This document shows, in pieces, positions 39,701-42,700 of a stretch of 64,000 nt of DNA. Made by a program: the position numbers. Each line of letters opens with the position of its first letter. Position 1 is the first letter of the stretch. Origin of the DNA: Escherichia coli. GTDB taxonomy: Bacteria; Pseudomonadota; Gammaproteobacteria; Enterobacterales; Enterobacteriaceae. The stretch is from the NCBI RefSeq assembly GCF_003334255.1, contig NZ_QOWU01000025.1; one strand, 5' to 3'.

Positions 39701-42700
39701 CACACCTGCTTCCAGGTGCTGGCTTACGAGCCGTATCTGGAGCTGTGCGAGATTATGAATCAGAAGGTGCCGGGCGATTTCGCCAAGAAAACGCTGCTGG
39801 TTACGACCGGTTCCGAAGCGGTGGAAAACGCGGTAAAAATCGCCCGCGCCGCCACCAAACGTAGCGGCACCATCGCTTTTAGCGGCGCGTATCACGGGCG
39901 CACGCATTACACGCTGGCGCTGACCGGCAAGGTGAATCCGTACTCTGCGGGCATGGGGCTGATGCCGGGTCATGTTTATCGCGCGCTTTATCCTTGCCCG
40001 CTGCACGGCATAAGCGAGGATGACGCTATCGCCAGCATCCACCGGATCTTCAAAAATGATGCCGCGCCGGAAGATATCGCCGCCATCGTGATTGAGCCGG
40101 TTCAGGGCGAAGGCGGTTTCTACGCCTCGTCGCCAGCCTTTATGCAGCGTTTACGCGCTCTGTGTGACGAGCACGGGATCATGCTGATTGCCGATGAAGT
40201 GCAGAGCGGCGCGGGGCGTACCGGCACGCTGTTTGCGATGGAGCAGATGGGCGTTGCGCCGGATCTTACCACCTTTGCGAAATCGATCGCGGGCGGCTTC
40301 CCGCTGGCGGGCGTCACCGGGCGCGCGGAAGTAATGGATGCCGTCGCTCCAGGCGGTCTGGGCGGCACCTATGCGGGTAACCCGATTGCCTGCGTGGCTG
40401 CGCTGGAAGTGTTGAAGGTGTTTGAGCAGGAAAATCTGCTGCAAAAAGCCAACGATCTGGGGCAGAAGTTGAAAGACGGATTGCTGGCGATAGCCGAAAA
40501 ACACCCGGAGATCGGCGACGTACGCGGGCTGGGGGCGATGATCGCCATTGAGCTGTTTGAAGACGGCGATCACAACAAGCCGGACGCCAAACTCACCGCC
40601 GAGATCGTGGCTCGCGCCCGCGATAAAGGCCTGATTCTTCTCTCCTGCGGCCCGTATTACAACGTGCTGCGCATCCTTGTACCGCTCACCATTGAAGACG
40701 CTCAGATCCGTCAGGGTCTGGAGATCATCAGCCAGTGTTTTGATGAGGCGAAGCAGTAGCGCCGCTCCTATGCCGGAGGCGACGCTGCGCGTCTTGTCCG
40801 GCCTACGGGGATCCAGGTCGGATAAGGCGTTTACGCCGCATCCGACAATCTGTACGTGAACAGGAAGAAATCTATGTTGGCCGGGTAAGGCGGAGCCGCT
40901 CTCCGGCAAAAAGAATCAATAACAATTATACGCGTGACCCGGCGCGGGAAATGTCGGGGCGCTCTCCCAAGTGACACACTTTCGAGAGGATTCAGGATGG
41001 GGCAATCATCGCAACCACATGAGTTAGGCGGCGGGCTGAAGTCACGCCACGTCACCATGTTGTCTATTGCCGGTGTTATCGGCGCAAGTCTGTTTGTCGG
41101 TTCCAGCGTCGCCATCGCCGAAGCGGGCCCGGCGGTATTACTGGCCTATCTGTTCGCCGGGCTACTGGTGGTTATGATTATGCGGATGTTGGCGGAAATG
41201 GCGGTTGCCACGCCCGATACCGGTTCGTTTTCCACCTATGCCGATAAAGCCATTGGTCGCTGGGCGGGCTATACCATCGGCTGGTTGTACTGGTGGTTTT
41301 GGGTACTGGTTATCCCGCTGGAAGCCAACATCGCCGCCATGATCCTGCACTCATGGGTTCCAGGCATTCCCATCTGGTTATTTTCCCTCGTCATTACCCT
41401 CGCCTTAACTGGCAGTAACTTATTAAGCGTTAAAAACTACGGCGAATTTGAGTTCTGGCTGGCGCTGTGCAAAGTCATCGCTATCCTGGCCTTTATTTTC
41501 CTTGGTGCAGTCGCAATTAGCGGTTTTTACCCGTATGCCGAAGTGAGCGGGATCTCAAGATTGTGGGATAGCGGCGGCTTTATGCCCAACGGTTTCGGTG
41601 CGGTATTAAGCGCGATGTTGATCACCATGTTCTCGTTTATGGGCGCAGAAATTGTCACCATTGCCGCCGCGGAATCCGACACGCCGGAAAAACATATTGT
41701 CCGCGCCACCAACTCGGTTATCTGGCGTATTTCTATCTTCTATTTATGTTCTATTTTTGTCGTCGTGGCATTAATTCCGTGGAATATGCCCGGACTAAAA
41801 GCCGTCGGTTCTTATCGCTCGGTACTGGAATTGCTCAATATTCCCCATGCGAAATTAATCATGGACTGCGTGATATTACTTTCCGTAACCAGTTGCCTGA
41901 ACTCGGCGCTGTATACCGCGTCAAGGATGCTCTACTCCTTAAGTCGTCGCGGTGATGCTCCCGCGGTAATGGGTAAAATCAACCGCAGTAAAACCCCGTA
42001 CGTGGCGGTGTTACTCTCCACCGGCGCGGCATTCTTAACGGTGGTGGTGAACTATTACGCGCCTGCGAAGGTATTTAAATTTCTGATCGACAGCTCCGGC
42101 GCTATCGCCCTGCTGGTTTATTTAGTCATCGCCGTTTCACAGTTGCGGATGCGCAAAATTCTGCGAGCAGAAGGAAGCGAAATTCGCTTGCGAATGTGGC
42201 TTTATCCGTGGCTCACCTGGCTAGTCATCGGCTTTATTACCTTTGTGTTGGTAGTGATGCTATTCCGTCCGGCGCAACAGTTAGAAGTGATCTCCACCGG
42301 CTTATTAGCGATAGGGATTATCTGTACCGTGCCAATTATGGCTCGCTGGAAAAAGCTGGTATTGTGGCAAAAAACACCCGTTCATAATACGCGCTGATCA
42401 TGATCAGGAGTCACACCATGACCATTACGTCTCTGGATGGCTATCGCTGGCTGAAGAACGATATTATTCGCGGTAATTTTCAACCGGATGAAAAATTACG
42501 AATGAGTTTGCTGACATCGCGTTATGCACTTGGCGTTGGGCCGTTACGGGAAGCTCTTTCGCAACTGGTGGCGGAACGGCTGGTCACGGTGGTGAATCAA
42601 AAAGGGTATCGGGTGGCGTCTATGTCAGAGCAGGAGCTGCTCGATATTTTCGACGCCCGCGCCAATATGGAAGCGATGTTAGTGAGTCTGGCGATTGCCC

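What the first reader, a model, noticed from the sequence alone, without database searches (positions are those of the whole stretch)
40762..40900. REP/BIME clusters mark operon ends (gabT-gabP and proX-ygaY)
Recognisable REP units in opposing orientation occur after gabT (40762-40900) and after proX (54876-54960). They probably act as mRNA stabilisers or partial terminators within csiD-lhgO-gabDTP and at the end of proVWX, and are potential IS insertion or gyrase binding sites.
Basis: partly seen in the sequence, partly recalled or inferred. Interest (0 to 1): 0.2.

Follow-up and report, generated by a model that had tools for sequence, protein, structure and literature searches.

The report
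Known REP repeats after gabT, proX
The two flagged spots are genuine copies of E. coli's commonest intergenic repeat (REP/BIME hairpins). The one after proX sits exactly where the proVWX message ends, so the finding is correct but ordinary and already annotated.

Summary
The window is K-12-like E. coli.

**gabT-gabP spacer.** It holds three palindromic units: a Z2-like unit (40771-40806), an inverted Y unit (40813-49) and a degenerate Y-like unit (40876-40908).

**After proX.** There is one Y unit (54875-54909) and one Z2 unit (54922-58). Together they match GenBank's annotated 'REP193, 2 REP sequences'. This pair also hits Rfam naRNA4, which models a Y-linker-Z2 unit, at 72.2 bits against a gathering score of 59.5. 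Core motifs are expected 0.00 times by chance in the window.

**Function at proX.**
- Two published Term-seq data sets place the main proX 3' end at window 54912/54913, 4-5 nt after the first REP hairpin.
- No U-tract follows that hairpin.
- A C-rich, G-poor spacer (28 C, 6 G) lies downstream, and a published in-vitro Rho-binding peak covers it.
- This fits Rho termination downstream followed by trimming back to the REP.

**Function at gabT-gabP.** The evidence is only correlative: published read counts drop about 10-fold per base from gabT to gabP. This BIME lies inside the operon, not at its end.

**Population.** Both sites are polymorphic. About 24% of 5,426 E. coli genomes lack the gabT-gabP REPs and about 10% lack the proX ones.

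The gyrase and IS-target roles remain generic and were not tested here. Already known; low interest.

The parts
40771..40806 (+). gabT-gabP BIME unit 1. It is a Z2-like palindromic unit ('iREP' orientation on the + strand, CTAC at 40803-40806). The hairpin foot at G40772 lies 12 nt after the gabT stop codon.
   Evidence: Sequence. 32 of 37 positions match the Z2 consensus, with one gap. RNA hairpin -23.0 kcal/mol, z -2.2. Weak Rfam second-hairpin hit at 40747-40803.
40813..40849 (+). gabT-gabP BIME unit 2. It is a Y-type unit in the opposite orientation. The 5' tetranucleotide is CCAG here and GTAG in strain KV7.
   Evidence: 0 mismatches to the 24-nt Y core. Rfam naRNA4 hairpin 1, 40.1 bits. 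Hairpin -18.8 kcal/mol, z -4.9. One compensatory G-C to A-T change in strain 98192.
40876..40908 (+). gabT-gabP BIME unit 3. It is a degenerate Y-like unit (GTTG + GCCGGGTAAGGCGGAGCCGCTCTCCGGCA) in the same orientation as unit 2, and it is an inverted repeat of unit 1.
   Evidence: (D2, I2). It aligns to the Y consensus with 3 gaps. Hairpin -15.4 kcal/mol, z only -1.3. In the full-length fold it pairs with unit 1 (34 long-range pairs, -73.2 versus -60.6 kcal/mol).
54875..54909 (+). REP193 unit 1. It is a Y-type unit. The hairpin stem spans 54879-54908 and its foot lies 10 nt after the proX stop codon.
   Evidence: -20.0 kcal/mol, z -3.6. Annotated as REP193 in PMC10656529 Supplementary Data 1A.
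54922..54958 (+). REP193 unit 2. It is a Z2-type unit in opposing orientation (CTAC at 54955-54958). A 12-nt tail-to-tail linker separates it from unit 1.
   Evidence: 0 mismatches to the 24-nt Z2 core. 36 of 37 positions match the Z2 consensus. Rfam hairpin 2. Hairpin -14.8 kcal/mol, z -3.3.
54912..54913 (+). Steady-state 3' end of the proVWX/proX mRNA, 4-5 nt downstream of the first REP hairpin.
   Evidence: Term-seq 'base where most transcription terminates' at map 5308 = K-12 2808168. Term-seq 'primary' proX 3' end at 2808169 in two conditions. Conversion offset taken.
54959..55059 (+). Untranslated C-rich, G-poor spacer between REP193 and ygaY. It is a likely Rho-loading and termination zone.
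   Evidence: 28 C and 6 G in 101 nt. Published in-vitro Rho-binding peaks at K-12 2808173-2808346 and 2808167-2808353 = window 54917-55090 and 54911-55097.

Best explanation
Both features are ordinary members of the E. coli REP/BIME repeat family. These are 30-40-nt imperfect palindromes of the Y and Z2 types, arranged in inverse orientation in intergenic DNA and transcribed as part of the upstream gene's 3' region.

After proX (annotated REP193), the inferred sequence of events is:
1. RNA polymerase reads through the two hairpins, which have no U-tract.
2. Rho loads on the C-rich, G-poor untranslated spacer before ygaY and terminates there diffusely.
3. 3'-to-5' exonucleases trim the transcript back to the first REP hairpin.
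4. That hairpin becomes the stable 3' end of proVWX mRNA and insulates ygaY.

Shown: the REP identity, the position of the 3' end, the in-vitro Rho-binding peak and the expression step-down. Inferred: the order of events and the role of the exonucleases.

Between gabT and gabP, the three-unit BIME lies inside the operon. It most likely acts as in the classic malE-malF case: a decay barrier and weak attenuator that keeps gabD-gabT mRNA about ten times more abundant than the distal permease segment. This is inferred from read counts only.
For: REP identity:
-. Rfam Y-linker-Z2 model at 72.2 bits against a 59.5 cut-off; core motifs expected 0.00 times by chance.
- Published annotation as REP193.
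- Family definitions in PMC3333891 and PMC4550694.

Hairpins: -15 to -23 kcal/mol each.

No intrinsic-terminator pattern on the + strand at either locus.

proX 3' end:
- Window 54912 and 54913.
- The authors of PMC10656529 saw no obvious intrinsic terminator and guessed Rho.

Rho evidence at proX:
- Spacer 54959-55059 has C/G = 4.67.
- In-vitro Rho-binding peaks overlap REP193 and the spacer.

General model:
- Rho-dependent transcripts end just after U-less stem-loops, 24% of them at REPs, after PNPase/RNase II trimming (PMC6061677).
- REP325 is both a partial Rho-dependent terminator and an upstream stabiliser. REP-separated tandem gene pairs show upstream-biased expression genome-wide (bioRxiv 10.64898/2026.03.23.713779).

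Expression (DESeq2 baseMean from that preprint's supplement):
- gabD 648, gabT 795, gabP 90.
- proX 5455, ygaY 257.
- Per base, gabT/gabP is about 9.7 and proX/ygaY about 25.
Against: - No deletion or mutation of either BIME has been tested, so all the expression evidence is correlative.
- baseMean values are pooled over strains and are not length-normalised at source.
- No gabT 3' end appears in the Term-seq tables I could read. The gab operon is poorly expressed in those conditions, so this is inconclusive.
- No BCM-sensitive Rho region is listed at either locus in PMC7815308.
- The gabT-gabP spacer has no C>G skew (C/G 0.88). I also did not find it in the stored part of the Rho-binding table, though that file was cut when stored.
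- Genome-wide, REPs do not uniformly lengthen mRNA half-lives.
- 24% and 10% of E. coli genomes lack the REPs at these sites, so neither element is indispensable.
Confidence: 0.78

Rival explanations
1. The REPs are essentially neutral or selfish passengers. They would be RAYT (TnpA-REP)-mobilised repeats that landed in permissive intergenic DNA, and the 3' end at the hairpin is an incidental by-product with no selected role at these loci.
For: There is strong presence/absence and copy-number polymorphism inside one species.
- The gabT-gabP BIME allele is in 4057 of 5426 genomes; an unrelated non-REP allele is in 1304.
- proX-ygaY has one Y-Z2 pair, two tandem pairs (roughly 30%, from spread rows) or no REP at all (544 genomes).
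- TnpA-REP cleaves and recombines BIMEs, and tandem copy number varies between strains (PMC3333891).
- REPs do not uniformly change half-lives.
Against: - The proX 3' end coincides with the hairpin in two data sets.
- Expression steps down 10-25-fold across both BIMEs.
- The non-REP alleles carry other strongly structured elements in the same slot. This suggests the slot tolerates or favours a hairpin.
- This rival is not exclusive of the best explanation: origin is a separate question from effect.
Confidence: 0.3
2. The main effect is on translation. A REP hairpin that starts fewer than 16 nt after a stop codon blocks the terminating ribosome, which triggers tmRNA rescue and lowers the yield of GabT and ProX.
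For: The hairpin foot is 12 nt after the gabT stop and 10 nt after the proX stop. The under-16-nt rule of Liang, Rudd and Deutscher 2015 is as summarised in PMC12306157.
Against: - It has not been tested for these genes, and I could not read the primary paper or its gene list.
- ProX is an abundant periplasmic binding protein, and proX reads are high.
- The mechanism would add to the RNA-level roles rather than replace them.
Confidence: 0.25
3. The elements act at the DNA or nucleoid level, either as strong gyrase sites (BIME-2) or as sources of an HU-binding naRNA4-like RNA that bridges cruciforms and condenses the chromosome.
For: - REP193 is a full-length Rfam naRNA4 match above the gathering score.
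- Gyrase cleavage sites are over-represented in a subset of BIME-2, mostly in Y units (PMC6379681).
- The HU-naRNA4 model is described in PMC4550694.
Against: [quoted passage not shown]
- Neither locus is named in the held gyrase supplements.
- REP193 has only one Y-Z2 pair in this strain, whereas the BIME-2 named as gyrase-cleaved (sucC-sucB, tldD-yhdP) house multiple cleavage sites.
Confidence: 0.12
4. They are ordinary Rho-independent (intrinsic) terminators that merely resemble REPs.
For: The stable GC-rich hairpins are energetically like terminator stems. Unit 3 is followed by AAAAAG on the + strand, which reads as a T-run on the other strand.
Against: - No hairpin-plus-T-run is found on the + strand at either locus.
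- The proX 3' end is followed by GUUCU only.
- gabP is co-transcribed downstream.
Confidence: 0.04

Closest known systems
REP325 / naRNA1-6 between yjdM and yjdN (E. coli K-12; Rfam RF02564)
   Same: It uses the same Y-linker-Z2 building block in the same orientation relative to the upstream gene. REP193 aligns to all 77 model positions. Like REP193, it lies between tandem genes. It acts as a partial Rho-dependent terminator and upstream-mRNA stabiliser.
   Different: REP325 has six tandem pairs (12 units). REP193 has one pair here and two in about 30% of strains. The linker sequence differs. Short 2-4-hairpin pieces of REP325 showed no Rho dependence on their own, so at proX the Rho signal probably comes from the C-rich spacer.
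malE-malF and hisJ-hisQ intra-operon REPs (Newbury et al. 1987; cited; recalled from established literature)
   Same: A BIME lies inside an operon between a highly expressed upstream gene and a less expressed membrane-component gene. The upstream mRNA segment is protected from 3' exonucleases. The gabT-gabP layout is the same.
   Different: The role at gabT-gabP has not been tested experimentally. This cluster has three units, one of them degenerate, and two outer units that can pair with each other.
BIME-2 (Bachellier/Gilson classification, as summarised in PMC3333891)
   Same: It is a Y plus Z2 combination in inverse orientation with short linkers, and the tandem copy number varies between strains.
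   Different: The K-12-type proX element is a single pair. The gabT-gabP element has a Z2-like unit with Y-like stem bases plus two Y-like units in direct orientation, so it fits 'atypical BIME' better.
REPINs of Pseudomonas (REP doublets mobilised by RAYTs; PMC3116915, PMC3337134)
   Same: Two REPs in inverted orientation can fold into one long hairpin. Units 1 and 3 of the gabT-gabP cluster do this in silico.
   Different: They belong to a different sequence family and a different RAYT. Here a third unit is nested between the two arms.

Membership tests
REP (palindromic unit) family of E. coli | 30-40-nt imperfect palindrome matching the Y, Z1 or Z2 consensus | tested here: met
   Four of the five units match clearly. 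Y cores have 0 and 2 mismatches in 24 nt, and the Z2 core has 0 in 24. The Rfam covariance-model alignment is and the pairwise alignments. Unit 3 (40876-40908) is degenerate: 3 gaps and a fold z of only -1.3.
REP (palindromic unit) family of E. coli | Conserved GTAG 5' of the hairpin foot (CTAC on the other strand) | tested here: inconclusive
   CTAC is intact on both Z2-type units (40803-40806, 54955-54958). The Y units carry CCAG, GTTG and TTCG in this strain. Strain KV7 has GTAG before unit 2, and the second pair of the two-pair proX allele has GTAT.
REP (palindromic unit) family of E. coli | Internal mismatch or bubble in the stem | tested here: met
   The predicted hairpins of units 1 and 2 and of both REP193 units show the internal loop. 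The requirement is described.
REP (palindromic unit) family of E. coli | Extragenic location and many copies per genome | tested here: met
   Both lie between stop and start codons. Megablast finds a median of 4, 10 and 16 places per genome. Identical 32-37-nt copies occur on other records (H30, H60).
BIME-2 | Y and Z2 units in inverse orientation with short linkers; tandem copy number varies between strains | tested here: met
   This holds for proX-ygaY: Y, a 12-nt linker, then Z2, with a two-pair allele in L003/L004. gabT-gabP meets it only in part, because units 2 and 3 are in direct orientation, so it is better called atypical.
BIME-2 | Bound and cleaved by DNA gyrase in vivo | not testable with these tools
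   Only a subset of BIME-2 carry gyrase cleavage sites. These loci are not named in the held supplements.
Rfam RF02564 naRNA4 | Score at or above the curated gathering threshold (59.5 bits) | tested here: met
   54878-54955 (+) scores 72.2 bits over the full length. The gabT-gabP units score 40.1, 27.1 and 24.5 bits, so they do not meet it.
Rfam RF02564 naRNA4 | Discrete HU-binding RNA that condenses the nucleoid | not testable with these tools
   The function itself is disputed by the 2026 preprint.
Intrinsic (Rho-independent) terminator | GC-rich hairpin immediately followed by a U-tract | tested here: not met
   No + strand hit at 40600-41100 or 54700-55200.
Rho-dependent terminator with a REP as 3' protective stem-loop | Precise 3' end just after a U-less stem-loop, with a C>G rut-like region or Rho binding downstream | tested here: met
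   proX: the 3' end is at 54912/54913; C/G is 4.67 over 54959-55059; an in-vitro Rho-binding peak covers the region. gabT-gabP: not met, or unknown (C/G 0.88; no 3' end listed).
Rho-dependent terminator with a REP as 3' protective stem-loop | Read-through when Rho is inhibited; extension in pnp/rnb mutants | not tested
   No BCM region is listed at either locus in PMC7815308. The supplement of PMC6061677 is not held.

The most novel reading that the evidence does not exclude
The same two intergenic slots are filled by unrelated structured elements in different E. coli lineages.
- After gabT there is either the 3-unit BIME or a ~170-nt palindromic element with a terminator-like hairpin.
- After proX there is one or two Y-Z2 pairs, or an unrelated ~450-bp structured spacer.

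This could mean that selection maintains 'some 3' RNA barrier' at these positions, and that the allele chosen tunes gabT:gabP and proX:ygaY ratios strain by strain.

In addition, the 34-bp long-range duplex that units 1 and 3 can form around unit 2 might be a double-strand-specific processing site, for example for RNase III, that uncouples gabDT mRNA from gabP mRNA.
Probability: 0.1. Interest if true: 0.35.

Novelty: already known. Interest (0 to 1): 0.1.

Why it matters
It matters little beyond correct annotation. REP193 is already in the K-12 GenBank annotation, and REP roles as 3' stabilisers and partial Rho-dependent terminators are established.

Two modest points are useful:
- The proVWX literature left the operon's terminator unexplained ('nothing obvious ... 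perhaps Rho'). The mapped 3' end in fact sits right after the first REP193 hairpin, upstream of a C-rich Rho-binding spacer.
- Both loci are natural allelic series (REP, more REP, no REP). They could serve as ready-made tests of how REPs tune expression within and between operons.

Tried and rejected
- **REP features in RefSeq.** I looked for them in NC_000913.3, but the local copy lists none in this stretch. I therefore could not confirm the official name or unit count of the gabT-gabP element. From memory it is the REP just before REP193, with 3 units; this is unverified.
- **Papers not held.** I tried to read Liang/Rudd/Deutscher 2015, its 2016 follow-up, and Schneider 2002 on gabDTPC.
- **Literature searches.** Searches for gabT or proX together with REP gave nothing locus-specific.
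- **Supplements.** The Dar & Sorek supplement is not held. The Sutormin gyrase supplements do not name these genes. The RepRanger supplements do not list them.
- **Intrinsic terminators.** Rejected; no U-tract.
- **Chance palindromes.** Rejected.
- **Counting the two-pair proX allele.** Coverage did not work because the tool merges overlapping pieces. The ~30% figure is only a rough estimate from evenly spaced rows.
- **Outgroup genomes.** I ran no further search on them. The finding is ordinary, so the cost was not justified.
- **IS insertions.** I did not test for them in these BIMEs across genomes.
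Full report
**Where we are.** The window is E. coli, almost identical to K-12 MG1655. Window coordinate + 2,753,256 gives the NC_000913.3 coordinate for gabT through proX. The genes are glaH(csiD)-lhgD-gabD-gabT-gabP-glaR, then nrdHIEF-proVWX-ygaY. The gabT stop codon is at 40757-40759 and the gabP ATG at 40998. The proX stop is at 54866-54868 and the ygaY ATG at 55060.

Reading the sequence gives five palindromic units.

After gabT:
- Unit 1, 40771-40806, TGCCGGAGGCGACGCTGCGCGTCTTGTCCGGCCTAC. It is Z2-like and ends in CTAC.
- Unit 2, 40813-40849, in the opposite orientation. It is a Y unit.
- Unit 3, 40876-40908, a degenerate Y-like unit in the same orientation as unit 2.

After proX:
- A Y unit at 54875-54909.
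- A 12-nt linker.
- A Z2 unit at 54922-54958 in the opposite orientation.

A 24-nt Y core pattern hits only 40820-40843 (0 mismatches) and 54882-54905 (2 mismatches). A 24-nt Z2 core hits only 54927-54950 (0 mismatches). For both patterns, 100 dinucleotide-preserving shuffles gave 0.00 expected matches. A permissive blastn-short scan found no other significant REP in the 64 kb.

**Alignment to a curated consensus.** RF02564 (naRNA4) models one 77-nt Y-linker-Z2 unit of REP325. It matches 54878-54955 on the + strand over all 77 positions at 72.2 bits, against a gathering score of 59.5 and with E about 2e-11. Its first hairpin matches unit 2 of the gabT cluster at 40.1 bits.

**Folding and copy number.** Each unit folds into the expected bubble-containing hairpin. 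Energies are -23.0, -18.8, -15.4, -20.0 and -14.8 kcal/mol, with z-scores from -1.3 for the degenerate unit 3 to -4.9. The elements are multicopy: megablast finds a median of 4 to 16 places per E. coli genome for these queries.

**Match to the published annotation.** The proX element coincides, to within a base, with the GenBank feature reproduced in PMC10656529 Supplementary Data 1A. [quoted passage not shown]

**Classification.** Ton-Hoang et al. (PMC3333891) give these definitions:
- REPs are 30-40-nt imperfect palindromes with GTAG 5' of the foot and a stem mismatch.
- There are three types: y, z1 and z2.
- BIME-2 is y plus z2 in inverse orientation with short linkers, and the tandem copy number varies between strains.

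The proX element fits BIME-2. The gabT-gabP element has a Z2-like unit and two Y-like units in direct orientation, so it is better called an atypical BIME.

The CTAC tag is intact on both Z2-type units. The Y units have degenerate tags in this strain (CCAG, GTTG, TTCG). Strain KV7 has GTAG before unit 2, and strain 98192 carries a compensatory G-C to A-T change in the inner stem of unit 2.

**What the proX element does.**
- Neither locus has a hairpin-plus-T-run on the + strand, so these are not intrinsic terminators.
- Two independent published Term-seq data sets place the proX 3' end right after the first REP hairpin (stem 54879-54908).
  - The first reports the 'base where most transcription terminates' at K-12 2808168 = window 54912.
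  - The second reports a 'primary' proX 3' end at 2808169 = window 54913 in two growth conditions.
- The 101-nt untranslated spacer between the BIME and ygaY has 28 C and 6 G, a rut-like composition.
- Table S16 of a 2026 preprint lists REP193 among the REPs overlapped by sequences from an in-vitro screen for Rho binding. The peaks are at 2808173-2808346 without NusG and 2808167-2808353 with NusG, on the + strand. These equal window 54917-55090 and 54911-55097.

This is the pattern Dar and Sorek described. Rho-dependent transcripts have precise steady-state ends immediately after U-less stem-loops, 24% of them at REPs. Termination is diffuse further downstream, and PNPase and RNase II then trim the transcript back.

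The same preprint shows that REP325 is both a partial Rho-dependent terminator and an upstream stabiliser. It also shows that REP-separated tandem gene pairs are biased toward the upstream gene genome-wide. Its DESeq2 baseMean values give proX 5455 and ygaY 257, about 25-fold per base.

My reading is that REP193 is the protective 3' stem-loop of proVWX mRNA and that Rho terminates in the spacer behind it. The 3' end, the Rho-binding peak and the step-down are shown. The order of events is inferred.

**What the gabT-gabP element does.** The evidence is weaker than at proX.
- baseMean values are gabD 648, gabT 795 and gabP 90. That is a roughly 10-fold per-base drop located between gabT and gabP.
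- No gabT 3' end is in the Term-seq tables I could read, but the operon is sigma-S-dependent and poorly expressed in those conditions.
- The spacer has no C>G skew (C/G 0.88).
- I did not find the locus in the stored part of the Rho-binding table, and that file was cut when stored.

The most likely mechanism is the classical intra-operon one seen at malE-malF: a barrier to 3' exonucleases that enriches the upstream gabDT segment, with some attenuation.

One structural detail is that units 1 and 3 are inverted copies of each other. In the full-length fold they pair over 34 base pairs around unit 2, at -73.2 kcal/mol. Three local hairpins give -60.6 kcal/mol. Co-transcriptional folding would favour the local hairpins.

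Both clusters start very close to the stop codon: 12 nt for gabT and 10 nt for proX. REPs within fewer than 16 nt of a stop codon have been reported to stall terminating ribosomes and lower translation (Liang et al. 2015, as summarised in PMC12306157). This could add a translational effect. I could not read the primary paper.

**Population picture.** Both sites are polymorphic, as is typical for BIMEs.
- gabT-gabP: the BIME allele covers at least 80% of the query in 4057 of 5426 complete E. coli genomes. In 1304 genomes it is replaced by an unrelated spacer of about 310 bp. That spacer holds a palindromic element of about 170 nt (fold z -8.8) with a terminator-like hairpin.
- proX-ygaY, three alleles:
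  - One Y-Z2 pair, as here.
  - Two tandem pairs (+100 bp), roughly 30% of genomes by a crude count.
  - No REP at all, with an unrelated spacer of about 450 bp, in 544 genomes.

So neither element is indispensable. Their origin is best explained by RAYT-type mobilisation and recombination. Their effects on RNA are local and depend on context.

**DNA-level ideas.**
- Gyrase cleavage sites are over-represented in a subset of BIME-2, mainly in Y units. These loci are not named in the supplements I could search.
- The Rfam name naRNA4 implies HU-mediated nucleoid condensation. The 2026 preprint finds no such effect.
- IS targeting of REPs is a generic property and I did not test it here.

**Verdict.** The features are already known, annotated REP/BIME elements. 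Interest is low. The only mildly useful additions are the explicit link between the mapped proVWX 3' end and the REP193 hairpin, the proximity of both clusters to the stop codon, and the allelic series at both loci.

Noticed in passing
L002:430-600 (E. coli RM9131, gabT-gabP spacer; replaces window 40760-40925): In 1304 of 5426 E. coli genomes an unrelated spacer replaces the BIME. It holds a ~170-nt near-perfect palindromic element with a GGGAGAGGG/GGGTGAGGG-type core (box C-like, from memory). RNA fold is -107 kcal/mol, z -8.8. A terminator-like hairpin lies at L002:544-565. The core is itself multicopy (median 3 places per genome).
   Followed up: partly
L005:170-621 (E. coli EC556, proX-ygaY spacer): A REP-free allele occurs in 544 of 5426 genomes, with an unrelated ~450-bp spacer that has its own GC-rich palindromes. 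Bases 61-269 of it have an ~83% identical copy elsewhere in some genomes, so it may be another repeat family.
   Followed up: partly
L003:170-459 and L004:292-581: This is a two-pair allele of the proX BIME (Y-Z2-Y-Z2, +100 bp). The second Y unit is preceded by GTAT, close to the canonical GTAG. It is a typical BIME-2 tandem expansion.
   Followed up: yes
window 55060-56244: ygaY is an intact 394-codon ORF here. MG1655 annotates it as a pseudogene. The window has 7 extra bases and is otherwise 100% identical over 1331 nt. The window is therefore from a K-12-like strain, not MG1655 itself.
   Followed up: partly
window 40931-40946: A short hairpin, CGCGTGACCCGGCGCG, lies in the gabP leader. It is conserved in both the BIME and the non-REP alleles. 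The L002 scan flags it as terminator-like on the - strand. Its function is unknown.
   Followed up: no
window 40771-40810 with 40872-40908: Units 1 and 3 of the gabT-gabP BIME share the unusual GCCGGAG stem. In the full-length fold they form a 34-bp long-range duplex around unit 2, a REPIN-like arrangement.
   Followed up: partly
window 24367-24729 (+), 6372-6497 (+), 2928-3066 (-), 61553-61624 (+), 32509-32581 (-): Other Rfam matches above the gathering score are tmRNA (ssrA), the pheL leader, RyfD, MicA and one tRNA. All are expected for this K-12 region.
   Followed up: no
window 1-64000: Only two REP loci occur in 64 kb. The roughly 355 annotated REP elements in 4.6 Mb would give about one per 13 kb, so this stretch is REP-poor.
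   Followed up: no
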